In this document: piece after piece, positions 6,904-41,783 of the stretch
How positions within the stretch are numbered: the first letter of the stretch is position 1
Layout of the letters: each line of letters opens with the position of its first letter
From: an uncultured Desulfospira sp.
Lineage (GTDB): Bacteria > Desulfobacterota > Desulfobacteria > Desulfobacterales > Desulfobacteraceae
Direction: 5' to 3'
DNA: 64,000 nucleotides
Assembly: GCA_963663165.1 (NCBI GenBank)
Contig: OY760175.1
Location: 5,536,001-5,600,000 of the forward strand
Notes under the pieces: model-generated
What the model was told of the DNA's origin: nothing
What the model saw: only the letters and a program-made list of their open reading frames with translations
Database searches by the model: none
Position numbers and translations under genes: made by a program

Positions 6904-7362
6904 TACGGTTTCACCTGCCGAATGATCCCGGCGAAGATACGGGGTTTCCACGTTCCACACTATTGCCAATTAGTGGATGACTTAGGCCTGCCCTCTGCAC
7001 CGGCGGCGCAACATCTCACGCGGCAGTTAGGAAACCTGCATCCTGACCGCTCACCTTTTGGTCCAAGCTTACCAGCCTCTTTAGCTTGTTCTCCCTGACG
7101 GTACTTACGGAACATTCAACTACTTTGACCATATCATCCAAACCCTTGCCCTCACCCGGATTGAGGCTTCCAGGAGGGTATCTGCCTCACGGCTTCCACC
7201 CCTTCCACAGTTGCGGAATTCGGTACGTTGTCGGTTGGGCTTCACACCGTTGCCGGATGCACCGACCACCGCATGCCACCTAGGGTACCGGCAGGAGAAT
7301 GCCGGGTTTGGTCAGGACCGACTGGCCCGCCAAACAGCCAATAATGCGACTTCGTGTCGCAC
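6904..7362 (-). mobile_element. Group II intron 5' fragment (copy A)
   Basis: GTGCGACACGAAGTCGC 5' end at 7362; nearly identical to ~38953-39411. Confidence 0.85.
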
Positions 7363-7488
7363 CCCGAACGATAAGCTCAGCCGACCGGGGGCAAGTCGCC
7401 GAGCGCGTTGTAAAAGCCAAATCCTTTCATAAACCAAGGTCTTTGAAAAGTCGATAGACCCCGGGGTCGGCTGGAGCGGTTGTTAGCC
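7363..7488 (-). repeat. attC site (type A)
   Basis: GGCTAAC-AACC-GCTCCAGCCGACC...GGTCGGCTGAGC-TTATC-GTTCGGG imperfect palindrome. Confidence 0.85.
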
Positions 7489-7892
7489 ATTTGTTGTGTT
7501 CAATTATTCTTCGTATTCTATTTTTTTGGCGTTATATCTTTTAGATCCTGTTCTTTTTTATCATCCAAAACGACATGCACTATCTCACCATCAAGTTCAC
7601 CAAAATTTATAGCTTTCATATCGACTTGCCTTATACGTCGATTGTGCTGTGTGTGGTAATTCAATGTCAAGTCTTTAAGGTTCCAGGCAGTGCTGACGCA
7701 TGAATAAAAAAAGGTTGGCTTTAGTCGATCTAACCACTCCCTTTGGGGGGAGATCCAGCCTTTTTTAATTCAAAAAGGCAGTCCTTCAGACACTGACTAT
7801 GGCCGAAACGAAAGACGGTCCTTCGGTCCGAACATAGCGTTCCCACCTCTCTGCTTGGGAGAGTGTTTTCGATTACCCGTCCGTCGTTGCCG

Positions 7893-9419
7893 TCATACTA
7901 ATCGGAGTTGAAAGGGAGTGGACAGACGATCTTCCAGCCACATGTAATCCAGCCACGGGCCGGACATGGTATCCCGGACTAAACGAATCAGGCCCCGTGC
8001 GCCGGTATCTTCAATAATCCTGGCAAGCCGCTGCGAGTATCTGGCCAAAACGTTAAACATATGGCCCAGGCGCATCAAGGCATGATACCCCTTCATGACG
8101 TTCCAATCATACGAAAAACAGTGCTCGTACTCATATCCATGATGTTTCTCAACGAGAATACCGGTTTCAATACACCAACGGGAACGGGCGGCTATGTTGC
8201 ATCGTTCGTGAAGATTAAATCTGTCCAAAGGTTCGCTGGACAACCACACATGACGACTATTTTTCTTTTCCGGTTGACCGCTTTCCCGGCTAACCTCTTT
8301 CCAGCTCTCTTTGCATTCAACAACGTGCAGGATTTGACTTTTCTTGCCGTTCGGACCAAACCGGTAGTCAATGGCGTTGATCCACCGAAAAACCTGTTTC
8401 CTATTGCCCCATGTGTGTTGGTGGCAGTTTTCTGTATCGAGTGCGGCAAGCGTTTCAAATTCATTCATTACGCTGGGTAGAGCGTCATCTTTCAGTACAA
8501 TCATGAACTGCCATTTGTTTGTTCGGCAAATTTCTGCCACGGGGCCCTTGGCATAAAGCCCATCCAAAAGCACCATAATTTTTAGGGCGGGAAATGCCGC
8601 CTTCAGGCAAGAGGCTAACCGGTAAAACGCCTTGAGTTCGCAGTCCTGCTTATCATTAGCGGTATCTCCTTCGGTGTAGCTCAGGATTTCGCTTATCAGC
8701 GGAATGCTCATGCCATCGGAAAACGCAAGATTAGCTTCCAGAACATAGACATGATACTGTTTCCTGGTGCCATCCTCTTTCTTGATGTTACGTTCCAGGC
8801 ACTCTTCATCCCAAAGCCAGTCGCGTTTGAATTTACCGGTACCATCTATGGCAATCGGATAACAGCCATTGACCAGGTACCGTCGAAATTTCTTTTTCCG
8901 GATCAGATCTCTGACCAGATCGAGATGAAGCTTCTTGATTTGATTGATATCAATCTTAGACAATAGGCGTTTTAACGTATCATGATGGGGAAGCGTTTCA
9001 AGCTCCGGGAAAAAATATTGAAGATTCTTCCAGAACATCGGCCGGCTCATTTCTTTGTTGGCCTCACGGCAAGAAGCCATCTGAAACACAAAGGTCAGTA
9101 TCCCATAGATCATGAGTGTGGATATTTGGTGTTTTATCTTCTTAGGGTTTCGAGGGTCTTCAATCTTGGCCATACGTTTGAGCAGAATTGGCAGCTTAGC
9201 GCGAAAAATACTCATTTTCTCAGCCACGGCCTCATTGCGGATGCGCCCCTCCTGTTCTACACTTTCATATCGGCATTTGCAGTTAGAAATTGTGCCATGA
9301 GAGGGCGGCTGAAATCCCCTGGCCTCTTCATCCCGACGTAATTTTCTCTGCTCCTTTTTAAACTGCTTTCTTTTGGCCTTTATCTCCTCACGATTGGGGC
9401 GTCGGCTAGGCTTGCTCAT
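7893..9419 (-). CDS. DDE transposase (ISAs1/IS4-like, ISNCY-type)
   Basis: IEDPRNP, IAIDGT, LLDGLY, ARSRWCIE motifs. Confidence 0.85.
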   Translation of the reverse strand: MSKPSRRPNREEIKAKRKQFKKEQRKLRRDEEARGFQPPSHGTISNCKCRYESVEQEGRIRNEAVAEKMSIFRAKLPILLKRMAKIEDPRNPKKIKHQISTLMIYGILTFVFQMASCREANKEMSRPMFWKNLQYFFPELETLPHHDTLKRLLSKIDINQIKKLHLDLVRDLIRKKKFRRYLVNGCYPIAIDGTGKFKRDWLWDEECLERNIKKEDGTRKQYHVYVLEANLAFSDGMSIPLISEILSYTEGDTANDKQDCELKAFYRLASCLKAAFPALKIMVLLDGLYAKGPVAEICRTNKWQFMIVLKDDALPSVMNEFETLAALDTENCHQHTWGNRKQVFRWINAIDYRFGPNGKKSQILHVVECKESWKEVSRESGQPEKKNSRHVWLSSEPLDRFNLHERCNIAARSRWCIETGILVEKHHGYEYEHCFSYDWNVMKGYHALMRLGHMFNVLARYSQRLARIIEDTGARGLIRLVRDTMSGPWLDYMWLEDRLSTPFQLRLV

Positions 9420-10291
9420 CCGATCTGCCTCAAAACCTGACGGAAATTATTCACCAGCGGATAAACGAAGATTTTTTTGGGACTGGTCCTGTAACTTCTA
9501 CCCTGCCGGACAAGCCCCTTTCCGCTGGTCATGCCAAGGTGTCTAAAATTGGCCGCCCGATAGCACGTCCCATCGAAGTGTTGTGGGTCGACAAAGGTCT
9601 CCAGCAAAGCCGGCCGATACCCCCAGCTCCGCTCCCAGTCTTGCACCAGATCTCTGACAATTTTACCCAATACGTGACTTGCCAGATACCGGACCTTGAC
9701 CCACGGAAAAATCAGGAAGCGTCCATTGTTTACAACAAATCCCAAGTTTCTTAAGCGTTCGTTGGTGCTCCAGCCGATCCATCGATCCCTCGGGGTCAGC
9801 GCCTTGGCCGCCCCTGAGAACAGCATACATCCCAATATGCGCTCTTGAGCTTGTATCAAATAACGCAGATGACATCCGAACGGCCGCTTGTAGCCAAGAT
9901 AATGGTAACGGTGCAGGTATTCATTAACCAGTGAGCGTTCTTCCGTGTCTTGTGCGACCCTGACAACGATCGGCCCGATATCCGAAAGCGTGCCCGCTAC
10001 CTTATCTTGGGGCTGGGTCCTGTCGTCCGCTACCGGCAGTTTCTGTTGAGAGCCCTTTATGGGACCGAGTTTCTCTTTTTCAGGCAACCGTATGAGACCT
10101 TGGGACTCCAGTCGCAGAAGCAATTTCCGGCAGGCATCCACCTTGTTCCTACCAGAAGCGGTATACCAGCCCAAATGTTCGCATATTGTATGAGCCAGTT
10201 CAGTCTGACTCAAATTCGAAAAGGTCTCTACTGTCTCGCAAATCTGTATAAGCTCTTCGTCTTTAATTTTCCGGCCACATTGGACAATCAC
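9416..10291 (-). CDS. DUF4338-domain IS accessory protein
   Basis: YHYLGY, RDRWIGW, VNNGRFLIFPWV, LLETFVD, GTCYRAAN. Confidence 0.85.
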   Translation of the reverse strand: MIVQCGRKIKDEELIQICETVETFSNLSQTELAHTICEHLGWYTASGRNKVDACRKLLLRLESQGLIRLPEKEKLGPIKGSQQKLPVADDRTQPQDKVAGTLSDIGPIVVRVAQDTEERSLVNEYLHRYHYLGYKRPFGCHLRYLIQAQERILGCMLFSGAAKALTPRDRWIGWSTNERLRNLGFVVNNGRFLIFPWVKVRYLASHVLGKIVRDLVQDWERSWGYRPALLETFVDPQHFDGTCYRAANFRHLGMTSGKGLVRQGRSYRTSPKKIFVYPLVNNFRQVLRQIG

Positions 10292-11825
10292 GACATCCTC
10301 CTCTTCAAATGTAGTGTCTCGATTGGGGGGGCGCTCATTCGTACCCTATGCTACATTATCAAAAGGCCGAAATTTTGTCTATTTAAATTTTGCGACAAAA
10401 TAATTTTGGATATCGAGCTGCGTCATTGATATCATTGACTATAAATTTTCATGCGTCAGCACTGGGTTCCAGGCGCTGGTCCAGATAGTTGATGAACGCA
10501 TCAAGTCAGTGTCGCCAGCGTGGCCCGCGCCTTCTGCTCCATCGGGGCCCAGTGGGAGATTAAAATTATCCAATATCCTGAAAGCCTCATAAAGAGTTTC
10601 ATCGGCTGTTTCGGTTTTTCTTGCTGTTTGTGTCCAGGCAACAGCTCTGACAAAACGCGAAGGTGGCGTGTTGTCACCTGGCAAGCCTATCATACCCGAA
10701 CCTGCTCCGGTTGGTGAAAACTTGACTCCTTCTAATTCCTTAGGTTCTACGGAAAACATAGATATGTTTACATAATTGCTTAAATTGGTCATGTGCCAAT
10801 CGTAGTTTGGGGCATTTGTAATAACTCCAAGAGGGGCATCATGAATCTTTAATTTTCCTTCAGTATATTCAATGACAATCGATTCTCCGGTTTTGTCAGT
10901 AACCATCCAATGGCCTTGAACAATTATACCAATAGCTTTTTCAACAACGCCTACTACAGTTACATTGGGCAAGCCATCACGCACTTCCTGCACGCTTGCA
11001 AATTCACCTAAAATATAGTTTGCAAGCTCCTGGCTTGAAATACTGTTTTGGGCATTCTCTTTTTTGTATTCGGGGTACACGGCATATCCGGGGTGGTAAA
11101 ACATACCCAGCGCCAAACCTTTTTCATTCATTCCATCCGAGATGAAATCTTTTCCAACCATGTCGAGCGCAACAATACCATAATTTGTGGTATAAGTTTT
11201 TCCATTGTTTCCATCCGGCGTTAAGCCGACATACTTGTACCCTCTCGGAATGATGGCGACTCTTGTATGTAGGTCGAAAGCTCCCCATTCCATAGTTCTG
11301 CCATAAACAACACCTCCGTCTTTAGCGGTTAATCGAATGCCTGTACAGGCAGTAGCAGGGAGTGAGAAAGCGTTAATCAACAGCGCTGATACCAACAGCA
11401 CCTGCCAGAATGTTAAATTGATCCGATTCATCTTCATATTGTCTCCTTATTAAATGAAATTTACAGTTATTTCATAGCATATGTCCTTGAGCATTTGTCC
11501 GGAAATACTGTTCTTTTTTCCGGGGTCAAAAGAATATTCATCCTTCTGAAATATGCCTTCGGATGTGTATGCTGTGTTGCATGTTCACAACCTTTGCGAT
11601 ACGCATCTACAGTCTTTTAACAGCGTAAAGCTGCTGATGGGCGCACCAGCTATTGCCGTCATTTGCTTTCCCATCCTCAAAGATTCTCCAAACTCTCTCA
11701 CCCGGATGGCCACCCAAAATCCCCCACTTATGGCCACCTCAAAATCCCCCACCTGAGCGTTTAAAAAATCAGGCGTAATCGCTGATAATCAGGAAATTCA
11801 GGAAAAACGGCGACAGAACGTTTAA

Positions 11826-13205
11826 GGGCCTCAGAAAAATTAATATCCACAATTCCATAGTCTGAATTCTGATTTCTATAGACAACATGGAATCGATAGT
11901 TTATGGTCAACATGGAAGATTACATAAAAAATACAGGAGGACCATGTTTGATCATTCTAAGCACAATTTACCCAAAACTATATCGGAATTAACGCCACCA
12001 CTAAAGGATTTTCTGAATACCACTCGAAGCAAATTAAAAGGCCATGAACGGCGCCAATTCATGGCACGCGTTGTCTCCCTTATGGGGCACGGCGGACAAC
12101 TAAAGGCTGAAAGAGAACTGGGTTGGGATCGGAAAACAATAATCAAAGGGCGACGGGAAATAGAAAGCGGAGTTACCTGTGTTGATAATTTTTCCGGACG
12201 AGGCCGGAAATCGTGTTTAGAACATTTTCCGAATTTAAAAGAGGACATAACTCGTATTGTAAACCCTATATGTCAGACTGATCCTACATTCCGTACCCAG
12301 AATTTATATTCCCCAATATCTGCGAATGAAGTATTCCGTCGATTAGTTGACGACATGGGATATGACCCTGAGAATATGCCAACAGTACGGACTCTATCCA
12401 CCATAATGAATAAATTGGGTTTTAAACTGAAGAAGGTCGCCAAAGCCAAGGTAAAAAAAAATTCCTGAAACAGACATCATTTTTGAATATGTGCATAGGA
12501 CAAACCAACTAGCCGATGAAACAGATGGCGTTTTACGTATCTCAATGGACGCAAAAGCCACTATTAAAATAGGGCCTTATTCCCGAGGCGGATATAGTCG
12601 TTGCAATCTTAAAGCGGCGGACCATGATTTTAAACCCGATTCCCTTTTGAAACTTTTCGGTATCAACATACCTGCTCTGGATGAAAATTATATGTACTTC
12701 ACTGAAAGCAACATCACCTCTGATTTCATGATTGATGCGCTGGAATCACTCTGGCCTTCTTTGAACGCAAGATTCGCCCCACATACACTGGTGATCAATC
12801 TTGATAATGGGCCGGAAAATAGTAGCCGAAGGAGCCAATTCATTAGTCGCCTCGTGGACTTTGCCAAATCAGCATTTGTAAATATTAGTTTGGTGTACTA
12901 TCCCCCGTACCACAGTAAATACAACCCAATAGAGCGAGTTTGGGGTGTTTTGGAAAATCATTGGAAAGGCGAATTGCTGAACAAAATTGAAAAGGTTCTC
13001 GGTCTATGTCGAACAATGACATGGAAAGGAGAAAATCCTGTCGTCAAATTAATCAAAGGTGTTTACCCGACAGGGGTACGTTTGGTCAAGTCCGCCGTGA
13101 ATAATATAGAAAACAAAATTATTCGGATTCCAGGGATTGAAAAATGGGCTGTTGATATTCCATGCTATGAGGAATGAATTGTGGGTTTTAATTTTACCAC
13201 ATCCC
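11826..13205 (+). mobile_element. ISAzo13-family IS, copy 1
   Basis: GGG...CCC ends, 3-bp TSD TAA; three copies in the window. Confidence 0.85.
11944..13177 (+). CDS. ISAzo13-family transposase, two frames joined at an A9 run
   Basis: ISMDAKATIKIG, NLDNGPEN, YYPPYHSKYNPIER; orfA ends 12468 and the +1 frame reads KKIPETD. Confidence 0.8.
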
Positions 13206-13245
13206 TAAATTCCCATGTATTACCCGATCAATCTAATCATGGGAG

Positions 13246-15897
13246 TTGGAAAGGATGAACGTTTTGAAACCAGAAAAACAGGCAGCAATCAGCACATTAC
13301 TCAACAAGAATGTAAGCCAGCGAGAAATCAGCAGGAAAACTGGTATTGACCGGAAGACAGTACGCCGATACATACGTCAAAACGCTCCCGGATCAATCCA
13401 AATTCCCCCACCGGAGGCCACATCAAAATCCCCCACCCCGGCCACCGATCAGATTGGAAAGCCCCCACCCCGGCCACCGGCTGATTCAGTGGATTCAGGC
13501 CCCATACCGTTTCACGCAAGATCCGCCTGTGAGCCTCACCGGAAATGGATTGAAGACCAGGTTCGACTGGGCAGAAACGCCATGGCTATCTATCAGGATC
13601 TGGTGGAGCAGTTCAGTTTTGAACATAAGTACAACAGCGTTAAACGCTTTGTCCGCAAGTTAAAGCGCAAAGACCCCAAGCAGTTTGACCGACTGGAGTT
13701 TAGGCCTGGAGAAGAAGCCCAGGTGGATTATGGCCAAGGCGCCTTAACCAAGGGGCCAAATGGCAAATACAAACGTCCCCGGTTATTTGTGATGACTTTG
13801 AAATATTCAGGGCGCTCCTTTCGCAAGGTAGTTTGGAAATCCAGTCAAGAAACCTGGGCCAAGCTTCATGAAGAGGCGTTCCGCTATTTCGGTGGTTGCC
13901 CTGAATACGTGGTTTTAGACAATTTAAAAGAGGGTGTTATCAAGCCGGATATCTATGAGCCTGAGTTGAACCCGGTTTATGCAGCTGTACTGGCTCACTA
14001 CGGTGTAGTAGCAGACCCGGCCAGGGTACGAGATCCCGACCGCAAGGGCACGGTGGAGAATGCCGTTCAGCATACCCAGAATACAGCCCTGAAAGGAAAG
14101 CAGTTTGACACCATTGAAGCCCAGAATGAATGGTTGATGCACTGGGAAGAAAGATGGGCATCAACCCGGATACACGGCCGGAAGAAACGGCAGGTGGAGG
14201 AGATGTTCCAGGAGGAAAAGCCCCATTTGTCCCTCCCGCCGTTGAAAGGGTTTGAATATTTTCGCCAGGAGACCCGCACAGTGTATGATGACGGAACTAT
14301 CCAGGTAGACTCATGCTATTATTCCGCCTTGCCGGCGCCGTTGCACCAGGAGGTCATTGTCCGGATTTATGAAACACAGATTGACATCATCAATCCCCGG
14401 ACCATGGAAAAAATCCGCACCCATATCAAAGGCGACCGGCCCGGAGCGGTTAAGATGGAGGAGGAAGACCGGATCTTCAATCCATCCCGGCAAACAACCA
14501 GCCTTTTGAATAAAGCCGAAAGTATCGGTCCTGCGACGAGACAGCTATGCGAACTGATTTTCAAGGAAAAGGGCCGCCCCGGACAGCGCCGGATGCAGGG
14601 CATTGTCAATCTTGCCCGGAAACATGAGGCCGGCAGTATTGAGGCGGCGGCCAAAACAGCCATAGAGAAGGGATTGCGCAGTTACAAATCCTTTTGCCGG
14701 CTGGTTGAACACCAGAAATCATTTACAGATACCAGGCCACAAGAGGGTATCAGCCAGGAGCATGAACTGATCCGGCCGTCAAATGATTACGGTCAGTTTT
14801 TCGACACGTATGCTGCCGGTAACCAACCCGTTATCTCAAAACAGGACCTGCCAAATGTATGGCAAAGTGCCGACTGGTTGAAGGTGATGGCCGTTTTCGG
14901 CCTTGAGCCCCAAAAGAACAAAAAAGACGAAATCTGGATTCAATCCCCTTTTACCGGAGAACAGAACGCCTCTTTGCATGTGCATCTGGGGCAGAATGTC
15001 TACAAGGACTTCAGCAGCGGCAAAGGCGGTGGAATCCTCAATTTCTGCCAGGATCTGCTGGCCCGCAAAGGGCGGGTGATGAACTGCTACCAAGTGGCGG
15101 AATGGATGATCAGCGAAGGCATTTCAAGCCTGAACAAACCCGTGGCCGTTGAGCCCAAACCAACTCCAGAAAAGAATCAGGCCAACCCGCCGGTGAGTAT
15201 TGATCTGCAACCGTTTCTGGAAATCGTTCATCCGGAACTTGAAAACCGGGGGATTTCCAATAAGGCCTGCCGATACCTGGGATGCGGATATCTGCCCAAG
15301 AGAGCCACAGGCAAAAGTTCTCCATTAAACGGAAGAGTGGTCTTTCAGGTGCGAGGGATCAGTCCGGAACTAACCCCTGTCATTCTAAGCCATGTCGGCC
15401 GTGCATTGACAGACCATCAGGCTGACCTGGATGGCAGATACTGGGGCTTTCCTTTCTCCAAAAAGCTGGAAATCTACAACCAGGACAAACTGCTGCTGGA
15501 CCCAAACGCCAGGGATCAGGTGGAACGATATGGCTTGACCCTTGTGGAGGGCTTTTTTGATGTGGCAGCCCTGGTGTCCGCTGACTGCTTGAATGCAGGT
15601 GCTCTCATGGGCGCACATATGGCAGTGGAACAGGTTCTCCAACTCAGGTTTCTGGCATCACATATGGATATAAACAAGGTCAACCTTTTCCTGGACCGGG
15701 ATGAGGCTGGAAGTAAAGGGACCCGGGCTGCGGCATCACTACTTACGCACCATGGGTTTACTGTAAATGTGTTTGACTGGAACCACCGGTTCATCCGGCC
15801 CGGATGTCCACCTGCAGGGATCAAGCCCGATATAAAAGATCCGGCCGACATGTCTGAAACCCAGCTCAAATACTTAAGAAAACAAGGGATGATTTAA
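13246..15897 (+). CDS. istA: IS21 transposase IstA fused to a DnaG-like (Zn-finger-like + TOPRIM) domain
   Basis: PGEEAQVDYG, VLDNLKEGV, KGTVENAV; C-terminus has SPFTGEQNASLHV...DFSSGKGGGIL, LVEGFFDV, LFLDRDEAG, KDPAD. Confidence 0.85.
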   Translation: MERMNVLKPEKQAAISTLLNKNVSQREISRKTGIDRKTVRRYIRQNAPGSIQIPPPEATSKSPTPATDQIGKPPPRPPADSVDSGPIPFHARSACEPHRKWIEDQVRLGRNAMAIYQDLVEQFSFEHKYNSVKRFVRKLKRKDPKQFDRLEFRPGEEAQVDYGQGALTKGPNGKYKRPRLFVMTLKYSGRSFRKVVWKSSQETWAKLHEEAFRYFGGCPEYVVLDNLKEGVIKPDIYEPELNPVYAAVLAHYGVVADPARVRDPDRKGTVENAVQHTQNTALKGKQFDTIEAQNEWLMHWEERWASTRIHGRKKRQVEEMFQEEKPHLSLPPLKGFEYFRQETRTVYDDGTIQVDSCYYSALPAPLHQEVIVRIYETQIDIINPRTMEKIRTHIKGDRPGAVKMEEEDRIFNPSRQTTSLLNKAESIGPATRQLCELIFKEKGRPGQRRMQGIVNLARKHEAGSIEAAAKTAIEKGLRSYKSFCRLVEHQKSFTDTRPQEGISQEHELIRPSNDYGQFFDTYAAGNQPVISKQDLPNVWQSADWLKVMAVFGLEPQKNKKDEIWIQSPFTGEQNASLHVHLGQNVYKDFSSGKGGGILNFCQDLLARKGRVMNCYQVAEWMISEGISSLNKPVAVEPKPTPEKNQANPPVSIDLQPFLEIVHPELENRGISNKACRYLGCGYLPKRATGKSSPLNGRVVFQVRGISPELTPVILSHVGRALTDHQADLDGRYWGFPFSKKLEIYNQDKLLLDPNARDQVERYGLTLVEGFFDVAALVSADCLNAGALMGAHMAVEQVLQLRFLASHMDINKVNLFLDRDEAGSKGTRAAASLLTHHGFTVNVFDWNHRFIRPGCPPAGIKPDIKDPADMSETQLKYLRKQGMI

Positions 15898-16098
15898 GGG
15901 ATGGCCAGCTTTTAAAAGTGTAACGCCTATCCCCTATATTCATAACGAAATAATGTAACGACCAGATACCCCGCTGCCACACCCTGCTAAAAAATTATAA
16001 AAATCATACCCCGCATGCCGACCCCGCCGGTAGACCCCGCCGCTGACTTATTCAAAATTTGCTACATATAATCTCCGTGATTCGAATCTTGGAGAAAA

Positions 16099-16449
16099 AT
16101 GATGGCAAAGAATTCTCGTGGAAAACGCCCTTGCTCTATTTGCCGAAAATGGTTTGCTCCTGATGTAAGACAAAAAGGCCGACAGAGAACATGCAGTCCG
16201 GTTTGCCAAAATGAGCTTCATCGAAGGCAATGTGAAAACTGGAACAGGAAAAACAAAGCGGTCTCCATAAATAATTACCTGGCAAAGAAAATTGAAAAGG
16301 CTCAAAACCTTCAAACATCCGGGAAATTGCCTGTTTTGCCGCTGGAAGTTATTGAAACAGAATACGGTATCAAGCCGGCAATTATCGTCGAATATCTGGT
16401 TGCCCAGGTTATCTGTCATACCAAAGAAAAAATTCGAGAATTCCCATAA
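16099..16449 (+). CDS. Small CxxC Zn-finger hypothetical protein
   Basis: CSICRKWF...QRTCSPVC; GGAG RBS. Confidence 0.65.
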   Translation: MMAKNSRGKRPCSICRKWFAPDVRQKGRQRTCSPVCQNELHRRQCENWNRKNKAVSINNYLAKKIEKAQNLQTSGKLPVLPLEVIETEYGIKPAIIVEYLVAQVICHTKEKIREFP

Positions 16450-16460
16450 ACACCTCTGAC

Positions 16461-16625
16461 TAATCGAATATTGATTTCAAGAGACAAGGTTATGTTAACC
16501 TCTTGTAATATTAAGATATACAAACAGAGTAATCGAATTTTGATTCTAAGAGACATCATGCGCATAAGTTGTTGATAATATATATAGATACAAACAGAGT
16601 AATCAGTATTCCAGTTCAAGAGGCA
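16461..16625. repeat. Three degenerate direct repeats, period 69-70 bp
   Basis: TAATC-N~12-AAGAG(A/G)CA at 16461, 16530 and 16600; ATACAAACAGAGTAATC exact twice. Confidence 0.7.
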
Positions 16626-17074: not shown

Positions 17075-17090
17075 AGATGTGAAGAGATGG

Positions 17091-27565: not shown

Positions 27566-27574
27566 GAGAACAAT

Positions 27575-29775: not shown

Positions 29776-30519
29776 AAAAAGGAAAAAATCGCAGATTTTA
29801 AGAGCATAACTTAGATCTCAATATTCTGTCGCTGGGGGATTTTGACCCGGCCACAGGTGGGGGATTTTAAAGTGGCCATCCGGGCTCACAAAGAAACACC
29901 TGCCCGGGTGTGTCTGTAGTCACACCCGCCGGACGTCAGCTCCCTTTCGGGCCGGGTAATGTCGATAGTCAATAGATCCATCTCAATCCGTATCCACTTC
30001 GTTACAAAATGGCATTTGCTTCTTCCTGCATCTTACTCCCGCACCTCCATCAATGTGCCTTGCGGTTTCACCTGCCGAATGATCCCGGCGAAGATACGGG
30101 GTTTCCACGTTCCACACTATTGCCGATTAGTGGATGACTTAGGCCTGCCCTCTGCACCGGCGGCGCAACATCTCACGCGGCAGTTAGGAAACCTGCAGCC
30201 TGACCGCTCACCTTTTGGTCCAAGCTTACCAGCCTCTTTAGCTTGTTCTCCCTGACGGTACTTACGGAACATTCAATTAATTTGACCATATCATCCAAAC
30301 CCTTGCCCTCACCCGGATTGAGGCTTCCAGGAGGGTATCCGCCTCACGGCTTCCACCCCTTCCGCAGCTGCGGAATTCGGTACGTTGTCGGTTGGGCTTC
30401 ACACCGTTGCCGGATGCACCGGTAACTGCATGCCACCTAGGGTACCGGCAGGAGAATGCCGGGTTTGGTCAGGACCGACTGGCCCGCCAAACAGCCAATA
30501 ATGCGACCTCGTGTCGCAC

Positions 30520-30648
30520 GCCAACAGGGAGCTCAGCCGCCCGGAGATTAGAACCGAGGACTTCCCAAAAATTAAATCCTTTTCGAAAACCAAGGGCTTT
30601 CAAAAAAGCCGATAGCTCTCCGGGTCGGCCTGCAGCGTTTTGTTCGGC
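30520..30648 (-). repeat. attC site (type B)
   Basis: GCCGAAC-AAAAC-GCTGCAGG...CTGAGC-TCCCT-GTTGGC. Confidence 0.85.
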
Positions 30649-32540: not shown

Positions 32541-32768
32541 TTATGTAGCGTGTTTGATTATGTTGTGAGTTTTATTCATTTTTATTCAAAAAGATTTTTC
32601 AAATCTTTCATTTTATTCGTATAATTCCAAATCATATGCATAGAAAAAGCCCGGAGTAGCCCCTCCGGGCTTTGATTGTGAACTCCCGTCGATAGCCGGA
32701 GAAGCCCACACACACAGTTATATTTCTATATCATTTTCCGGTTATCTGCAATACCGGAAAAATCTAAA

Positions 32769-33155
32769 ATGCTTTTAATTCCAAATACATGCCGATGGTG
32801 CCATTTCGTATTTTTTGTTTGCAGGTTCTGCTGGAGAGGGCAGGCCTATTGTTGCAGGGACTGCCGTAAGGCCGGAATCCTCAGAAACAAAAGAGAAGCA
32901 CAGCGACGATACCGCCAGACCGAGAAGGGGAAAAGACGGCATCGGGAAGCCGAGAACCGGCGTCGGCATCGAAAAAAAATTCAAGAGACAAAAAACATGG
33001 ATGATACAGCTTCCACAGTGCTGCCTGCTTGGTGTAGGACAATAATATTGTGGATTTTGTTTCAGATTCAGGGCCTTCCAATCAAACCATATTGTCAGTT
33101 CTGCGGCTCTTCAGGTCAAGTCGTCACACAATTTCCCCGGCGGGGATATGGATAA
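32769..33155 (+). CDS. Cys-rich Zn-finger protein
   Basis: CRWC...VCRFCWRGQAYCCRDC...YRQTEKGK...CQFCG...QFPRRGYG. Confidence 0.7.
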   Translation: MLLIPNTCRWCHFVFFVCRFCWRGQAYCCRDCRKAGILRNKREAQRRYRQTEKGKRRHREAENRRRHRKKIQETKNMDDTASTVLPAWCRTIILWILFQIQGLPIKPYCQFCGSSGQVVTQFPRRGYG

Positions 33156-33588
33156 ACGTAAAAACTGGAGGCGCGGCATGGTAAAAAAAGAAATCCTGAA
33201 CCCTTCAAGGGTGCGTTGTATCAAAGGAGGATTTAGTTTTATCCCCCATCGGTTTCTTACGGGTGGATTTTTGCGAGCATTAAGCCGGGACGAGTTGTTA
33301 TTGTATTTTTTCCTGGTTCTGGCCGGTGACCGCAACGGATTAAGTTTTTACAGTTATGATAAAATATGCACCCTGCTAAAAATGCAACTGGACCAGTACA
33401 TTGAAGCTCGGGATGGATTGATGGAAAATGATCTGATTGCCTTTGACGGCACCATTTACCAGGTGCTTTCCTTACCGGCCAACCTTATACAATCTGCTGT
33501 ACAAAAAAAATCTTCCCTGAACAGCCGTCAACCTGAATCAGTTGGAAAAATTTTGAGCAAACTGGTTATGGAGGCCGATCATGGTTGA
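33148..33588 (+). CDS. wHTH/replication-initiator-like hypothetical protein
   Basis: RVRCIKGGFSFIPHRF...LYFFLVLAGDRNGLSFYSYDKIC. Confidence 0.7.
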   Translation: MDKRKNWRRGMVKKEILNPSRVRCIKGGFSFIPHRFLTGGFLRALSRDELLLYFFLVLAGDRNGLSFYSYDKICTLLKMQLDQYIEARDGLMENDLIAFDGTIYQVLSLPANLIQSAVQKKSSLNSRQPESVGKILSKLVMEADHG

Positions 33589-34498
33589 GCAGACACCCAA
33601 AAGTCCGCCCGGTTATGATCTGGATCAGATCCGCCGGGATTATCTGGACCATATGCTTAAAATCAAGGAAAGCTCTCCTTCTCAAACCTGTTGCAGGACC
33701 AAAATTATCAAAGCGTTTGACAGTTATCTGCAAACATCGGGAGTCTCACTGGTCAATATAAACATAGGGCATGTTGATGATTTTCTGGCAAGGTTCAATG
33801 CCCCATATGCAAAGAGTACCCAGGGGGTATACCGTTCCTGTTTTCGAGGCTTTTTGCACTACCTGTATAATGAACGGCATTTGATCCAACAGAATTTAGC
33901 CCCGCTTGTGACCGGTCCGCCAATGTTTGCTCAAGTCAAGCCTCCTAAATTTTTAAGACCCGGTGAAGTCCGTCAGTTATTTGATCATTTGCCCTGTGCA
34001 ACATCCAAAGAGCTTCGTGTCTATGCACAGGTTCACCTGGCTTATTATCTTGGATTGCGCCCCATTGAAATCAGCCGCCTTACTCTGGACGATATCTGTT
34101 TTGCCAAAGGACTGCTAAACCTGGAAAACACAAAAAATGCAAAGCCCCTTCAATTGCCCATTCCCGATGAAGTTATCAAAGCAATCACCGCTTATATCGT
34201 TGGAGGCAGGCCTAAAAGTCAGTCTCGCTCTCTTTTTTTAACCAGCCATTGCCCACCTTACAGAGCTGTAAGTGCCTGGCTCACCAGGCACGATTTAACA
34301 AAGGCGTTGCGGGCTGCCGGTCTTCCCGGTACAGGATATTGGCTGCGCCACACCTTTGCACAAAACATGCTGGAAGCAGGTGCCGGCATTTTTGAAATCA
34401 AAGAAATGATGGGGCATTCCATCATTGATTCCACAAAAGTATATCTAAGTATCCACAAGGAATTGATGCGCCGGGTGTTGTTCGATGAAACCGTTTAA
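33581..34498 (+). CDS. RIT tyrosine recombinase A
   Basis: LGLRPIE, LRHTFA, MGH...TKVY. Confidence 0.88.
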   Translation: MVEQTPKSPPGYDLDQIRRDYLDHMLKIKESSPSQTCCRTKIIKAFDSYLQTSGVSLVNINIGHVDDFLARFNAPYAKSTQGVYRSCFRGFLHYLYNERHLIQQNLAPLVTGPPMFAQVKPPKFLRPGEVRQLFDHLPCATSKELRVYAQVHLAYYLGLRPIEISRLTLDDICFAKGLLNLENTKNAKPLQLPIPDEVIKAITAYIVGGRPKSQSRSLFLTSHCPPYRAVSAWLTRHDLTKALRAAGLPGTGYWLRHTFAQNMLEAGAGIFEIKEMMGHSIIDSTKVYLSIHKELMRRVLFDETV

Positions 34499-35459
34499 AA
34501 GCTTTTTGGCCACAGAGATGGAAAACTTTATTGTTTACCGGCAAGGACTGGGATACAGTTGCCATATGCTCCGGTGGGCCTTGCTTACCTTTGACGATTT
34601 TTTAATGAGGCAGCCGGATCTCTCAGACATTTGGATGCCCCATTTTTATATCACCTTTAAAAATGAGATTGGCCTTGAGCCCTCCGGCGTAGCCAGCATT
34701 CTAAATGTAGTTCGAGGCTTTTTTGATTATCTGAAACGGCAGCGGATAAATCTTGATAACCCTTTGAAAGATGTGACCGCTCCGGCCCGGCGCACCTTCA
34801 TCCCCTTTATATTCTCACCGGAGCAGGTAGAAATGTTACTGGGGGTGGTATGCGGACGGATCCGGCAAACCCCTATGCGGTTCCTTAAAGATTACAGTGA
34901 ATATCTGGTGATCCTTCTGCTTGCCCGCTGTGGGCTGAGGATGAATGAACCCTTGCGCCTGAGATTGAAAAATTACCGGCCGGATGAAAAGACGATTTAC
35001 ATAGAGAAAACCAAGTTCAAAAAGGACCGTCTTATCCCTATTCCAAAATCAACTGCCATGCAGATTGACAACTATCTTTTAACCAGGGCCGCTTTAATTG
35101 AAAACGATATGAATCCCTACCTGTTCATGGGGATAGGGGAAAACGGCTTGAACGATAACCGTATTCGCTCTGTTTTTCACGATGCTGTGCGTCAAATCGG
35201 GATCCGCCGCCCAAGGAAAATTATCGGCGACACGACCTTTGGGAAGCCCACTCCGCACTGTTTACGGCACTCTTTTGCCATTAACACCTTGAAGGCAGCC
35301 ATTGCCCGGAAACAATCACCCCGGAATGTGCTGCCGGTGCTTGCCGGCTATATGGGTCATGTTGAGTATAAATACACCATGGAATATTTGAAAGCAGTTG
35401 ATGCTGAAAGCCGCGACAGCCTGTTCAAATTTACCACCGGCAGAAGGGATGAATCATGA
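34485..35459 (+). CDS. RIT tyrosine recombinase B
   Basis: CGLRMNE, TKFKKDR, HCLRHSFA, LAGYMGH...TMEY. Confidence 0.9.
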   Translation: MKPFKSFLATEMENFIVYRQGLGYSCHMLRWALLTFDDFLMRQPDLSDIWMPHFYITFKNEIGLEPSGVASILNVVRGFFDYLKRQRINLDNPLKDVTAPARRTFIPFIFSPEQVEMLLGVVCGRIRQTPMRFLKDYSEYLVILLLARCGLRMNEPLRLRLKNYRPDEKTIYIEKTKFKKDRLIPIPKSTAMQIDNYLLTRAALIENDMNPYLFMGIGENGLNDNRIRSVFHDAVRQIGIRRPRKIIGDTTFGKPTPHCLRHSFAINTLKAAIARKQSPRNVLPVLAGYMGHVEYKYTMEYLKAVDAESRDSLFKFTTGRRDES

Positions 35460-36475
35460 ACCTGACCCGTTGCGTTGTTCAATTTTTTGACCAATACCTG
35501 CCTTATGTCAAAGGGTGCCGCCCCAATACGATCAAAAGTTACCGGGATACCATGCGCTTTTTTTTACCGTTTGCTGCCGAATACCACAGCGTAAAGGTCA
35601 GTTCGCTCAATCTGGAACATATCACGGTAGAATTAATTTTGCAGTTTCTCAATGAGCTTGAATCCAAACGGTCCAACACGGCTAAAACCCGGAACCAGCG
35701 CCTGGCCGTTTTAAAGTCTTTTGCCAAAATGATCCGTTTTATTTATCCCGAGCAACAAAAACTGACCAATGCGATCCTTGATATTCCCCGGAAACGAAGC
35801 CAACACAAGTTGATCGGATTTTTGTATCCCCAGGAGATCAATCAAATCCTTAATGCGGTCCAACTTAAAAGAAAGGACGGGTTCCGAGATTATACCCTTC
35901 TGTATCTATTATATGATACCGGTGCCAGGGCAACGGAAATCGCTACCCTTGAGATGGATTATTTTGATTATGAAAATCAAACTCTGGCGATTCTTGGGAA
36001 GGGTAACCGATATCGACAAGTTCAGTTGCTTGGGAAAACAGTAGAGCTTATGCATCAGTATATTGAAGAACATCGCAATACGCCAATCCATCCGTTTAAA
36101 AAAAGGCTGTTCATCAACCAAAGAGGAACAAGCTTGACCCGCCACGGTATCAACCGGATCTGTAAAAACTACCTTGAACAGGCTTTACCGGCAAAGCGGA
36201 CAGCGACCATGCACCCCGTCCATAGCTTCCGTCATTCGTGTGCCGTTCGAATGCTCTCAGAGGATCGGCCTTTATCTGAAATTAAGAATCGCTTGGGGCA
36301 TTCTAATGTCAAATCCACAATGGTTTACTTAAAGCTTGATCTAGGCCAGAAGCGACATTTACAAGAGAACTTCATCCAGTTCACCAAACAGCACCTGAAA
36401 TCTGATCCGAAAATTGAGGAGTTGATCCAGTGGGAAAACAAGCAAAACGTTCTTGAGTGGCTGGATAGTCTATAG
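35456..36475 (+). CDS. RIT tyrosine recombinase C
   Basis: NTIKSYRD, TRNQRLA, TGARATE, HSFRHS, LGH...TMVY. Confidence 0.9.
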   Translation: MNLTRCVVQFFDQYLPYVKGCRPNTIKSYRDTMRFFLPFAAEYHSVKVSSLNLEHITVELILQFLNELESKRSNTAKTRNQRLAVLKSFAKMIRFIYPEQQKLTNAILDIPRKRSQHKLIGFLYPQEINQILNAVQLKRKDGFRDYTLLYLLYDTGARATEIATLEMDYFDYENQTLAILGKGNRYRQVQLLGKTVELMHQYIEEHRNTPIHPFKKRLFINQRGTSLTRHGINRICKNYLEQALPAKRTATMHPVHSFRHSCAVRMLSEDRPLSEIKNRLGHSNVKSTMVYLKLDLGQKRHLQENFIQFTKQHLKSDPKIEELIQWENKQNVLEWLDSL

Positions 36476-36746
36476 ATCCTTACAGACTTCATCACCAGCA
36501 CTCCTCAGGGCAAACTGTAGCTGTTTATTATGTTTAGTGATTTGTTGCAAATTTGTCATACCCTTGATAACCAACTGTTTATTTGAACGATTTTGACTTA
36601 CGGCATTACGGCGCCCAAACCACGGTCAATCAAGGCTTCAGGACCGCTCGCAACATAACTCCAATAAAATCAGAATACTGACTGCTTTCATCTTTAAAAC
36701 ACCAAGTCATAACAACAGAATTGTCAACAACAAAATCATTACCCAT

Positions 36747-37100: not shown

Positions 37101-39411
37101 ATCGGGTAGGTCGGGGGCTTTACAGCCCCTTTCCCCCCTCAGAACCGTACGTGACAGTTTCCCGTCATACGGCTCAAGCATTTCTAAGGCTGAGCCTTGC
37201 GGGGCCGCCCGGCTGTTTTCTCTTGCCAATGCTGAAATTTACAGTTATTTCATTACATATTTTCTCGGCCGCTGTGACAGGGATCACCTTTGGTTTCACC
37301 CGTCTTGCCCGGAAGTATTGTTGATGTTCCGGGTCAAAAGGATTTGCATCGCTTTTGATTTTGATGTGCCGTTGGATATGTATGCTGTGCGCTTTGATGA
37401 GTTCGGATGTTCTCGGGTTGCCGTTTTTATCTTTGACCACCGTTGAGAACCGCCCCGGTTTTGAGCCCTTTGACCAGTACGTCTTTTTCAACCATTGGAT
37501 GCTTTTATTCCGGTGACGTCGTTTCACCCATTGCCACGCTTCATTCCATATGTACCCGTCAACATAGCTGAAAGTTTTTGCTGAGACAACATGTTTGTGA
37601 TAGTTCGCCCAACCCCTTATTTTCATGTTAAGATCATGAATCAGAGCCTCGGCTTTCGATCCCCGGTGCTTCCTGAACGTCTCGTGGATTTTATCCATGA
37701 AGGCCTGCACATTTTTCCTGGATGGTTTAATGAGCAGTTTGCCGTCATACTTACGAACGTTTTGGCCCAGAAAATCGAATCCCCGGTCAATTCGGGTAAT
37801 CAGGGTCTTTTCTTCAGACAGGGATAGATCCCGTTCCGAGAGAAATCTGATTATGGCCGGTTTGACCTTGTCTTCAAGAAGTTCCCGGGTTGCACCGGTA
37901 ATAATGAAATCATCAGCATACCGGATGACGTTGATTTTGGAACTGATGTCCTTACCGTTGCGTCTGTCCCTGACAGGGGCAACAGATCCGGCAGTCCCTT
38001 CAATGCCGTCCAGAACCATGTTGGCCAGTGTGGGAGAGGCAATGCCGCCTTGCGGTGTTCCCCGGCCTGTTGGAAAGAATTTACCGTCCTCCATAAACCC
38101 GGAAGCCAGCCATTTGGTAAGGATCATCTTATCCATAGGGATATGGTCGATCATCCAGTCATGGCTGATTTCATCAAAGCAGGCTTTAATATCCGCTTCA
38201 AGTATCCAGACCGGCGAGGTTTTCTTGGCCAGTGTATTAAAGCATTGGGATATGGCGTCCGCACATCGCCTGTATGACCTGAATCCGTATGAATTGTGGT
38301 CGGCCAGTGTTTCTGCTATCGGCTCCAATGCCAGTTTATACAATGCCTGAACAGCCCTGTCGATCATTGTGGGAATACTTAACGGACGTTTCTTGCCGTT
38401 CTTTTTGGGAATATAGATCCGCCTGAGCGGTGATGGCTGGTATCCTCTCCGTTTGAGGTTGCCTGCTGCCTGGAATTTCTGCCTGGCGGTTTTCCAGGTG
38501 ACGTTGTCGACACCCGGAGTGCGTTTCCCTTTATTGGAGGTCACGCGTTTTACAGCTAACAGCTTTGCCTGGTAAGAGTGGGTCAGAAGCCACTGGAGGG
38601 CCTTGGCCCGTCTGTATCTTCCTTCTTTCACAGCCTTTGCGATACGCATTTGCAGTCTTTTAACAGCTTCATAAATGGCTTTCCAATGAATGGACTTCCA
38701 ATTCCTGAAACTGCCGATGGGCGCACCAGCTGTTGCCGTCATTTGCCTTCCCATCTTCAAAGATTCTCCAGACTATCTCGCAAAGAAACACCTGCCCGGG
38801 TGTGCCTGTAGTCACACCCGCCGGACGTCAGCTCCCTTTCGGGCCGGATAATGTTGAAGGTCAGTAGATCCATCTCAATCCGTATCCACCTCATTACAAG
38901 ACGGCATTCGCTTCTTCCTGCATCTTATTCCCGCACCCCCATCAGTGTGCCTTGCGGTTTCACCTGCCGAATGTTCCCGGCGAAGATACGGGGTTTCCAC
39001 GTTCCGCATTATTGCCAATTAGTGGATGACTTAGGTCCGCCCTCTGCACCGGCGGCGCAACATCTCACGCGGCAGTTGAGAAACCTGCATCCTGACCGCT
39101 CACCTTTTGGTCCCAGCTTACCAGCCTCTTTAGCTTGTTCTCCCTGACGGTACTTACGGAACATTCAACTACTTTGACCATATCATCCAAACCCTTGCCC
39201 TCACCCGGAATGAGGCTTCCAGGAGGGTATCCGCCTCACGGCTTCCACCCCTTCCGCAGTTGCGGAATTCGGTACGTTGTCGGTTGGGCTTCACACCGTT
39301 GCCGGATGCACCGACCACCGCATGCCACCTAGGGTACCGGCAGGAGAATGCCGGGTTTGGTCAGGACCGACTGGCCCGCCAAACAGCCAATAATGCGACT
39401 TCGTGTCGCAC
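37101..39411 (-). mobile_element. Full-length group II intron (copy C)
   Basis: 5' GTGCG; D5 GAGCCGTATGACGGGAAACTGTCACGTACGGTTC; D6 ending CCTACCCGAT; RT ORF inside. Confidence 0.93.
37174..38760 (-). CDS. ltrA: Group II intron reverse transcriptase/maturase, no HNH domain
   Basis: RLQMRIAKA, TPGVD, GTPQGG, RYADDF, GFDFLG, IRGWANY. Confidence 0.95.
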   Translation of the reverse strand: MKMGRQMTATAGAPIGSFRNWKSIHWKAIYEAVKRLQMRIAKAVKEGRYRRAKALQWLLTHSYQAKLLAVKRVTSNKGKRTPGVDNVTWKTARQKFQAAGNLKRRGYQPSPLRRIYIPKKNGKKRPLSIPTMIDRAVQALYKLALEPIAETLADHNSYGFRSYRRCADAISQCFNTLAKKTSPVWILEADIKACFDEISHDWMIDHIPMDKMILTKWLASGFMEDGKFFPTGRGTPQGGIASPTLANMVLDGIEGTAGSVAPVRDRRNGKDISSKINVIRYADDFIITGATRELLEDKVKPAIIRFLSERDLSLSEEKTLITRIDRGFDFLGQNVRKYDGKLLIKPSRKNVQAFMDKIHETFRKHRGSKAEALIHDLNMKIRGWANYHKHVVSAKTFSYVDGYIWNEAWQWVKRRHRNKSIQWLKKTYWSKGSKPGRFSTVVKDKNGNPRTSELIKAHSIHIQRHIKIKSDANPFDPEHQQYFRARRVKPKVIPVTAAEKICNEITVNFSIGKRKQPGGPARLSLRNA

Positions 39412-39539
39412 CCTAACGGGGAGCTCAGCCGCCCGGAGACTATAACCGAGGACTTCCCCAAAATTAAATTCTTTTCAGAAACCGAGGTTTTTCGAAAAGC
39501 CGCTATCTCTCCGGGTCGGCCTGCAGCGTTTTGTTAGCC
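39412..39539 (-). repeat. attC site (type B)
   Basis: GGCTAAC-AAAAC-GCTGCAGG...CTGAGC-TCCCC-GTTAGG. Confidence 0.88.
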
Positions 39540-40306: not shown

Positions 40307-40312
40307 CTCGTT

Positions 40313-40756
40313 TCACTCCTCCCATGTAGGGTATTGTTGTGGTGCTGGACCAATACTTTCTATCAGCTGGGGATATTCAATTTCTTTATCTGGTGATTTT
40401 GGCTTTTTTCTTGATTTAGTAATTTTAAAAATCCAATCATCACCAAAATCAAAATGGTAAAATAACTTTAACCCTTTGGGCAAAGGATAGATCTCATTGA
40501 GTGTCATTTGATGATAATTATCAGTTGCTTTTTCGTAATCAAAATCCCAAGCATCTTCTGGAAATAAGGGTTTTCTGTTTCTGAAATGTCTTCCTGTAAA
40601 AAACTCAAATAGGTGATCATTTTCAAATTTGACTGATTTTTGGATAATCAAATGTAAATCATAAAGAGTTGATTCTTCGTCTATTTCAATCATGCGAACA
40701 CAGTCTTCCTCAAGATATCTTCCCCACTCACATTCAATTTTAAGTGTCCAAATCAT
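40313..40756 (-). CDS. pRiA4b ORF-3-like protein (cassette)
   Basis: TLYDLHLIIQ...DHLFEF...YHFDFGDDW...YP...G-AP-QY. Confidence 0.8.
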   Translation of the reverse strand: MIWTLKIECEWGRYLEEDCVRMIEIDEESTLYDLHLIIQKSVKFENDHLFEFFTGRHFRNRKPLFPEDAWDFDYEKATDNYHQMTLNEIYPLPKGLKLFYHFDFGDDWIFKITKSRKKPKSPDKEIEYPQLIESIGPAPQQYPTWEE

Positions 40757-40788
40757 CTTTTCTGCCTTTAAAGGTATTGTTAAATGGG

Positions 40789-41783
40789 ATCGGGTAGCCG
40801 GGGGTAGTTATCTACCCCAGGCCCCCTCAGAACCGTACGTGACAGTTTCCCGTCATACGGCTCAAGCATTTCTAAGGCTAAGCCTTGCGGGGCCGCCCGG
40901 TTGTTTTAGCAATAATGAAATTTACAGTTATTTCATAGCATATATCCTTGAGCATCTGCCCGGAAAGTATTTTTCTTTTTCCGGGTCAAAAGAGAACATC
41001 CTTTTGAAAGATGCCTCTGGCGTGTATGCTGTGTGCTACTTTAACAACCTTTGCGATACGCATCTACAGTCTTTTAACAGAATAAATCTGCAGATGGGCG
41101 CACCAGCTATTGCCGTCATTTGCTTTCCCATCTTCAAAGATTCTCCAGACTCTCTCGCAAAGAAACACCTGCCCGGGTGTGCCTGTAGCCACACCCGCCG
41201 GAGGTCAGCTCCCTTTCGGGCCGGATAATGTTGGGATGTTCTCCTCAATCCGTATCCACCTCATTACAAGATGGCCTTCGCTTTTTCCTGCATCTTACTC
41301 CCGCACCTCCATCAGTGTGCCTTACGGTTTCACCTGCCGAATACTCCCGGCGAAGATACGGGGTTTCCACGTTCCACACTATTGCCAATTAGTGGATGAC
41401 TTAGGCCTGCCCTCTGCACCGGCGGCGCAACATCTCCGTGCAGGCAGTTAGGAAACCGGCAGCCTGACCGCTCACCTTTTGGTCCAAGCTTACCAGCCTC
41501 TTTAGCTTGTTCTCCCTGACGGTACTTACGGAACATTCAATTAATTTGACCATATCATCCAAACCCTTGCCCTCACCCGGATTGAGGCTTCCAGGAGGGT
41601 ATCTGCCTCACAGCTTCCACCCCTTCCGCAGTTGCGGAATTCGGTACGTTGTCGGTTGGGCTTCACACCGTTGCCGGATGCACCGACAACCGCATGCCAC
41701 CTAGGGTACCGGCAGGAGAATGCCGGGTTTGGTCAGGACCGACTGGCCCGCCAAACAGCCAATAATGCGACTTCGTGTCGCAC
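40789..41783 (-). ncRNA. ORF-less group II intron (copy D, ~995 nt) with intact ends
   Basis: 5' GTGCG; D5 identical to copy C; different but pairing D6 ending CTACCCGAT; RT ORF deleted. Confidence 0.88.

What the first reader, a model, noticed from the sequence alone, without database searches (positions are those of the whole stretch)
6904..41783. Group II intron family that homes just downstream of attC in the sense orientation
Seen: all four copies begin 3-4 nt after the R' GTT (GTTCGGG|, GTTGGC|, GTTAGG|, GTTAAG|GTGCG), on the cassette strand, behind all three attC subtypes, with different exon sequences. Known: described IIC-attC introns insert antisense, into the bottom strand near R''. 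Inference: targeting follows the attC hairpin rather than fixed EBS-IBS pairing, leaves the attC intact, and makes the intron the 5' passenger of the next cassette. The RT N-terminus does not look class C to me, but I cannot assign the class or exclude prior reports.
Basis: partly seen in the sequence, partly recalled or inferred. Interest (0 to 1): 0.75.

Follow-up and report, generated by a model that had tools for sequence, protein, structure and literature searches.

The report
Sense-strand intron riding integron cassettes
A self-splicing mobile intron has copied itself behind many gene-cassette recombination sites of this bacterium, facing the same way as the genes; it finds the spot mainly by ordinary RNA-DNA base pairing, not by the DNA hairpin, and one intron of this kind is already in print.

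Summary
Observation confirmed. Four intron 5' ends sit 3-4 nt after the attC GTT, in cassette sense, but only one copy is complete with its RT (37101-39411). One is ORF-less, one is split by an 18-kb insert and lacks DV-DVI, and one is cut at 457 nt. Genome-wide, 15 of 16 5' ends follow attC; the other is a tandem copy. The intron is IIB1/CL1 and endonuclease-less (52% identical to EcI5), not class C. The hairpin-instead-of-EBS idea is not supported. Covariation across 79 homologs locates EBS1 (NNNAAC, a mimic of R'', pairing GTTNNN), EBS2 (GGGAG pairing the attC spacer CTCCC), EBS2a and EBS3. Relatives retune EBS2 to their host's spacer, a sister lineage sits at hairpin-less attI, and another also uses non-attC look-alikes. 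In two empty-allele comparisons the '+4' junction is +3 with an extra G. The passenger idea is supported. Prior art: one CL1/IIB1 intron behind attC (UHB.I2, PMC7923331). This scan also found the clade on other DNA and elsewhere in this genome. Extras: attI retargeting, an ORF-less sub-family, and junction bases that no longer match the cassette's own R'' (1 of 7 vs 24 of 28). Mechanism inferred from sequence only.

The parts
37101..39411 (-). Full-length group IIB1 intron (2311 nt), GTGCG...CCCGAT; DV with AGC triad, DVI with bulged A
37174..38760 (-). Intron-encoded RT/maturase, 528 aa from TTG; RVT_N + RVT_1 + GIIM, YADD, no endonuclease domain; CL1 lineage
   Evidence: 6ME0 E=1e-165, IIC RTs about 1e-33; EcI5 RT 52% over 487 aa
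39075..39080 (-). EBS1 (CUCAAC in this copy; CCUAAC in the other three window copies), pairs with GTT-NNN at -6..-1
   Evidence: covariation scan (z about 18); coordinates
39140..39146 (-). EBS2 (GGGAG, 39140-39144) pairing CTCCC at -12..-8, and EBS2a (C, 39146) pairing G-13
   Evidence: z about 19; EcI5 control in the same columns; PMC8643678 passages
39044..39044 (-). EBS3 (G), pairs with the pyrimidine at +1
   Evidence: MI 1.09 in 47 homologs; 15 of 15 genomic 3' exons start with C or T
39412..39539 (-). attC (family B) of the RHH/MazF cassette, upstream of the full intron
40789..41783 (-). ORF-less copy (995 nt) with intact D1, DV and DVI; same internal-deletion junction as six other genomic copies checked
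41784..41912 (-). attC (family A) upstream of the ORF-less copy
29885..30519 (-). 5' part of an ORF-less copy, interrupted by an 18-kb insert (about 11700-29884) that carries IS21-type transposase genes
11453..11699 (-). 3' remnant of the 30519 copy; DV-DVI missing, runs into the ribosome-binding site of the choloylglycine-hydrolase-family gene (10439-11437)
30520..30648 (-). attC (family B) upstream of the split copy
6906..7362 (-). Copy truncated after 457 nt at the array end
7363..7488 (-). attC with GAGCTTATC spacer (EBS2 pairing only 3/5); probably placed here by cassette loss

Best explanation
An endonuclease-less IIB1/CL1 group II intron that retrohomes into the top strand of attC at GTT+3 by reading a linear sequence. 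EBS1 (NNNAAC) copies R'' and pairs with GTT plus, loosely, three more bases; EBS3 (G) reads the pyrimidine of GTTRRRY; EBS2/EBS2a (C-A-GGGAG) read G-CTCCC in the L'-R' spacer of the host's main attC families; the RT probably reads T(G/C)A at -16..-14. The insertion lies 3' of the G|TT crossover, in the untranslated leader of the next cassette, so it can be spliced out of cassette transcripts and moves with that cassette. ORF-less copies are probably mobilised in trans. Shown from sequence: class, boundaries, EBS positions, complementarity, passenger cases. Inferred: protein contacts, splicing, trans mobilisation, use of single-stranded DNA.
For: Scan of 79 non-redundant homologous D1s against their own exons gives two peaks only: nt 332-337 and 268-272. 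EcI5 shows EBS2a/EBS2 in the same columns, matching the published A-14 pairing. EBS2 5/5 with EBS2a matched in 11 of 13 readable genomic copies. EBS2 changes with the host spacer: ACAAG/ACGAG with CTTGT in G002, AAGTAG/AAGTAC with CTACTT/GTACTT in L005/L143. The pairing rule leaves 42 sites in 6.74 Mb, 23 of them attC; adding T(C/G)A leaves 35, 30 of them attC. L005 and L143 sit at attI with intI 470-500 bp upstream and no attC-like hairpin. A related family in G087 has 6 of 10 copies at non-attC sites that share (C/G)AG-N6-GTT.
Against: In this intron's own family no copy sits at a non-integron site: 0 of 19 pairing-competent non-attC sites are used, although 17 of those lie in open frames over 200 codons, 12 antisense. 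EBS1 positions -1..-3 are often mismatched (3-6 of 6). EBS2 pairing is weaker in GTT-reading introns than in others (3.90 of 5, n=56, vs 4.45, n=63; rows not independent). Occupancy of attCs with poor IBS2 (4 of 17, two listed only because occupied) is not clearly below that of perfect ones (11 of 33). No strand bias relative to GC-skew replichores. No experiment.
Confidence: 0.72

Rival explanations
1. Pairing is required but the extruded attC stem-loop helps: it exposes the unpaired spacer (IBS2) as a toehold or is bound by the RT, so that weak pairing is tolerated only at attC.
For: All 15 primary genomic copies are at attC, including four with poor or unknown IBS2; empty non-attC matches; weaker EBS2 pairing in the clade; many G004 copies behind diverse attCs with poor IBS2. 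PMC7923331 speculates on a top-strand hairpin role.
Against: attI and non-attC insertions in sister lineages; cassette reshuffling swaps IBS2 after insertion; in a folded top strand GTT is tied up with R''.
Confidence: 0.2
2. One reading: the hairpin alone sets the site, as in IIC introns, with no meaningful EBS2 and little EBS1.
For: Variable last three exon bases; constant distance from GTT.
Against: EBS1, EBS2, EBS2a and EBS3 are present and complementary; EBS2 shows compensatory change between hosts; register follows EBS1 phase across relatives, NNNAAC at +3, NNAACG at +2, TAACGN at +1.
Confidence: 0.04
3. Insertion is broad (any GTT-NNN-Y with fair IBS2) and the attC bias is produced by selection plus spread on cassettes.
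For: 17 of 19 alternative sites lie in long open frames; passenger cases exist.
Against: EBS2 is tuned to the attC spacer itself; copies lead many different cassettes with different 3' exons. Selection is likely a contributor, not the cause.
Confidence: 0.04

Closest known systems
UHB.I2 (Sonbol and Siam 2021, PMC7923331; read abstract, background, results, discussion and supplement 1 text)
   Same: IIB1 RNA, CL1 RT without endonuclease, same orientation as the cassettes, directly after an attC; its printed D1 shows an AAC-containing d3 loop and its RT N-terminus resembles this one (by eye).
   Different: A single copy in a metagenome contig; authors found no exon conservation, no EBS3 bulge, and speculated on the hairpin. 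Here: 16 copies, all four pairings mapped, clade-wide survey. UHB.I2 was not placed on my tree.
EcI5 (E. coli pO157) and T. elongatus TeI3/TeI4 introns, CL1/IIB1 (PMC8643678, PMC2882425, passages)
   Same: RT 52% identical to EcI5; EBS1/EBS2/EBS2a/EBS3 recognition; ORF-less derivatives from one deletion spread alongside ORF-containing copies; EBS variants among copies; tandem insertions.
   Different: Those RTs carry an endonuclease domain and do not target integrons; here IBS2a is at -13 (reported for chloroplast IIB1) instead of -14.
Group IIC-attC introns (S.ma.I2 type; as described in PMC7923331 and PMC4424553 passages)
   Same: Specialised on attC sites of cassette arrays; endonuclease-less.
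   Different: IIC-attC insert antisense into the bottom strand at R'' (TTGT/T), lack EBS2 and depend on a stem-loop. This intron is sense, at R' +3, has EBS2 and an AGC triad.

Membership tests
Group IIB1 / CL1 intron | RT closest to CL1 proteins | tested here: met
   6ME0 E=1.4e-165 vs 1e-36 or weaker for others; EcI5 RT 52%. No full multi-class tree with named references was built.
Group IIB1 / CL1 intron | EBS1-IBS1, EBS2-IBS2 and EBS3-IBS3 pairings | tested here: met
Group IIB1 / CL1 intron | EBS2a-IBS2a Watson-Crick pair | tested here: met
   C two positions before EBS2 with G-13 in 11 of 13 readable genomic copies plus the 7362 copy; column MI 0.49 at -14 across 74 homologs
Group IIB1 / CL1 intron | DV with AGC triad, DVI with bulged A, GUGYG...AY ends | tested here: met
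Group IIB1 / CL1 intron | Splicing and retrohoming activity | not testable with these tools
   Contigs laid showed no joint that skips the intron; no raw RNA reads of this organism
Group IIC-attC intron | Class C RT, CGC triad, no EBS2 | tested here: not met
Group IIC-attC intron | Antisense insertion in the bottom strand at R'' | tested here: not met
   15 of 15 primary copies are sense, at R' +3
Group IIC-attC intron | Dependence on a DNA stem-loop | tested here: inconclusive
   Sister lineages at attI and non-attC sites argue against; own family only at integron sites; needs an assay
Integron cassette array / CALIN | attC sites with R''-L''-L'-R', cassette 5' core complementary to own R'', IntI in genome | tested here: met
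   24 of 28 empty cassettes match R''; one IntI over cut-off at G000 4194663-4195604, none in the window
UHB.I2-type CL1 attC introns | Same clade as UHB.I2 | not tested
   Compared by eye only; sequence not held as a locus or protein

The most novel reading that the evidence does not exclude
A widespread CL1 intron lineage is an integron specialist with a fixed R''-mimic in EBS1 and a tunable EBS2 that has switched between attC spacers and attI. An attI-tuned member would regain an empty target after every cassette capture and so tag new cassettes one after another. Where copies are many, they recombine with one another, rewrite the R' core bases of cassettes and reshuffle arrays without IntI.
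Probability: 0.3. Interest if true: 0.7.

Novelty: new variant of a known kind. Interest (0 to 1): 0.45.

Why it matters
It shows a second, mechanistically different route by which group II introns exploit integrons: ordinary base pairing with the attC right arm, in sense orientation, which leaves recombination and cassette expression largely intact and gives the intron a ride. It answers the open speculation in PMC7923331 about how UHB.I2-type introns choose attC, and gives a natural series of EBS variants for a direct test of sequence versus hairpin recognition. If intron copies also rewrite cassette cores and reshuffle arrays, they add a force to integron evolution.

Tried and rejected
EBS2 first guessed at GUGAGC next to the d3 stem: rejected, the covariation peak is at GGGAG. 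EBS1 register UUUCUC/UUUCCU: rejected for NNNAAC. 'Slide to the next pyrimidine' for +4 sites: disfavoured by two empty alleles showing +3 plus an extra G; only two informative cases. Replication-strand bias: 6 copies on one orientation, 9-10 on the other by GC skew, with dnaA hits not at the skew minimum; no support. Pooled test of junction-base/R'' mismatch across genomes with automatic attC calls: 7 of 16 vs 22 of 33, p=0.21; significant only in G000 with curated sites. MFE folding of 150-nt upstream regions separates attI from attC but not cleanly the non-attC look-alikes. The attC heuristic misses sites with broken R'' (33 of 72 clade rows vs 0 of 75 others at score 8; clade list chosen by me, duplicates included). 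Pattern search for more attI-type insertions in 401 genomes of the order: 1 match, not an intron. Four runs laid as contigs showed no intron-skipping joint; RNA runs had shares of 0.10 or less. Promoter scan not above shuffles. G001:C6 is 99% identical to the window and was not counted as independent.

Full report
Observation. The window holds a disrupted minus-strand cassette array (toxin-antitoxin, DUF2442, hydrolase and other cassettes) with 14 attC-type sites and no integron integrase; the genome's one IntI lies 1.35 Mb away. Four intron 5' ends follow attC GTT at 41783, 39411, 30519 and 7362. Only 39411-37101 is complete with a 528-aa RT. 41783-40789 is an ORF-less 995-nt form. The 30519 copy is the same ORF-less form split by an 18-kb insert, continues at 11699-11453 and lacks DV-DVI. 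The 7362 copy stops at 457 nt. In the whole genome 15 of 16 5' ends follow an attC GT(T/C) in sense; the 16th is the downstream member of a tandem. All 15 3' ends found are followed by C or T.

Class. The RT has RVT_N, RVT_1 and GIIM domains and no endonuclease. Its best solved relative is the T. elongatus intron RT (E=1e-165; class C RTs about 1e-33), and it is 52% identical to the EcI5 RT, which PMC8643678 calls IIB1/CL1 (passages). DV has the AGC triad and DVI a bulged A. It is not a IIC-attC intron.

How the target is read. I collected relatives from genome and metagenome contigs (79 loci each, the best of about 600 matches per scan) and from related genomes. Of 158 distinct D1s, 149 were usable and 79 non-redundant. 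Scoring every 5-nt D1 window against each intron's own exon, with exon permutation as control for the top 400 windows, gave two peaks: intron nt 332-337 against exon -6..-1 (z about 18) and nt 268-272 against about -13..-9 (z about 19). The first base of the 3' exon covaries with one column, nt 368 (MI 1.09, 47 introns with a 3' end found), and EcI5 shows its published EBS2a/EBS2 in the same columns. In this family that gives EBS1 = NNNAAC, EBS2a/EBS2 = C-A-GGGAG, EBS3 = G, so the target is G-CTCCC-N-GTT-NNN|Y: the end of L', the spacer and R'. Window targets pair as follows: 41783 EBS2 5/5, EBS1 5/6; 39411 5/5 and 4.5/6 (6/6 with the sibling EBS1 CCUAAC); 30519 5/5 and 4.5/6; 7362 3/5 and 5/6. 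EBS2 is perfect in 11 of 13 readable genomic copies. The rule leaves 42 sites genome-wide, 23 of them attC; with T(C/G)A in front, 30 of 35 are attC. EBS1's first three bases vary among copies and only partly track the exon.

Relatives. On a tree of 65 of 101 RTs, 22 of 28 introns with AAC in EBS1 fall in one clade of 24 (SH-aLRT 99), mostly sulfate-reducer records; six lie in two other groups; four changes against 21 for shuffled labels; one origin is not shown. The insertion register follows the phase of AAC in EBS1: +3, +2 or +1. EBS2 follows the host: ACAAG/ACGAG with CTTGT spacers in G002; AAGTAG and AAGTAC with CTACTT and GTACTT in L005 and L143. Those two are attI sites with a divergent intI about 470-500 bp upstream and no attC-like stem; the same attI type is empty beside intI in other genomes. 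A related family in G087 has 4 of 10 copies at attC and 6 at non-attC sites (two are one duplicated target), all six with (C/G)AG-N6-GTT (non-attC judged by heuristic score and by eye). Outside G000 and its near-identical contig, I count 20 of 21 copies of the family itself at attC or attC remnants and one at an attI-like site (partly by eye).

What remains for the hairpin. None of the 19 pairing-competent non-attC sites in G000 is occupied, but 17 lie in long open frames, 12 antisense. EBS2 pairing is weaker in GTT readers than in other introns (3.90 vs 4.45; 28 loci left out as tandem, duplicate, truncated or misaligned), and attCs with poor IBS2 are not clearly avoided (4 of 17 vs 11 of 33). 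Because IBS2 lies upstream of the G|TT crossover, any later cassette move replaces it. This is seen directly: the 457-nt copy sits behind a perfect CTCCC attC in G001:C6 and behind the CTTAT attC in the window, with three cassettes absent between. Introns with unmatched EBS2 also occur as first cassette at attI in G002 and G004.

Junction oddities. Two occupied sites with empty alleles show insertion at GTT+3 with one extra G, which suggests a G-extended intron or an added base. In G000 the three bases between GTT and the intron match the cassette's own R'' in 1 of 7 occupied cassettes against 24 of 28 empty ones (p=0.0008; two of the seven are doubtful pairs), while the first 3'-exon base matches in 6 of 7. 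The pooled test over all genomes was not significant. The same site carries D1s only 94% identical in G000 and G001:C6. Recombination or conversion between copies is the simplest reading; co-conversion during homing is the alternative. Seven ORF-less copies checked share one deletion junction and three longer copies share another, which suggests mobilisation in trans as reported for T. elongatus (PMC2882425 passages).

Literature. Seven full-text searches found one direct precedent, UHB.I2: CL1/IIB1, endonuclease-less, sense, immediately after attC, with a speculated hairpin role (PMC7923331, parts 1-4 of 7 and supplement 1 text read; figures not visible, second supplement not read). That paper also cites a IIC intron in an attC top strand. 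PMC4424553, PMC3001079 and PMC8919778 (passages) add nothing on sense insertion. I found no description of the EBS mapping or of attI retargeting in these searches; most subscription papers, including the primary IIC-attC studies, are not in the library. Earlier notes of this scan report the same clade on other DNA and in this genome.

Verdict. A real, well-populated case of a once-reported kind. The mechanism is conventional base pairing tuned to integron sites, not the proposed hairpin rule. Interest 0.45.

Noticed in passing
L005 and L143/L315 (intron 5' ends at 2340 and 1501 of L005, L143): Sister lineage (about 72% RT identity for L005) inserted at attI, with EBS2 complementary to the attI sequence and a compensatory change between the two genomes.
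   Followed up: partly
window 11700-29884: An 18-kb element with GGATGGCCAC-type inverted ends and several IS21-type and rve transposase genes splits the 30519 intron copy; it is shorter in the near-identical contig G001:C6.
   Followed up: partly
G000:C1:4187800-4191100 and G002:C1:3329500-3334000: Tandem introns at one attC (two in G000, three in G002), consistent with repeated insertion at a retained target; the downstream G000 copy lacks its first three bases.
   Followed up: partly
L008, L013, L021, L029, L040, L053, L079, L244: Clade members start with non-canonical 5' ends (TCGCG, CTGCG, GCGCG, TTGCG, ATGCG).
   Followed up: no
L136, L138, L139, L161, L259; G000:C1:1884280: attC R'' boxes broken by an element ending in a GTGCCGTGCCCGGCAC-type palindrome, probably IS91-like; these defeat simple attC scoring.
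   Followed up: no
window 4210-6159: Truncated tyrosine recombinase followed by an IS91-type (Y2) transposase at the array end; a 96.7% identical stretch abuts another broken intron copy at G000 4180216.
   Followed up: partly
window 7893-10291: DruA-domain ORF plus DDE transposase inserted between the hydrolase cassette gene and its attC.
   Followed up: no
window 32541-36669 and 52389-56517: Two near-identical three-recombinase (RIT-type) elements; one splits the PIN toxin gene of the cassette behind the full intron, together with an IS4-type element at 30997-32543.
   Followed up: no
window 10439-11453: The dead intron remnant runs straight into the ribosome-binding site of the choloylglycine-hydrolase-family gene, so the cassette's original leader appears lost.
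   Followed up: no
L030, L042, L049, L051, L061, L062, L064, L076, L078: Gammaproteobacterial CL1 introns with a different 5' architecture around a conserved TAGCCTAGGGATAGTGC motif; left out of the EBS analysis.
   Followed up: no
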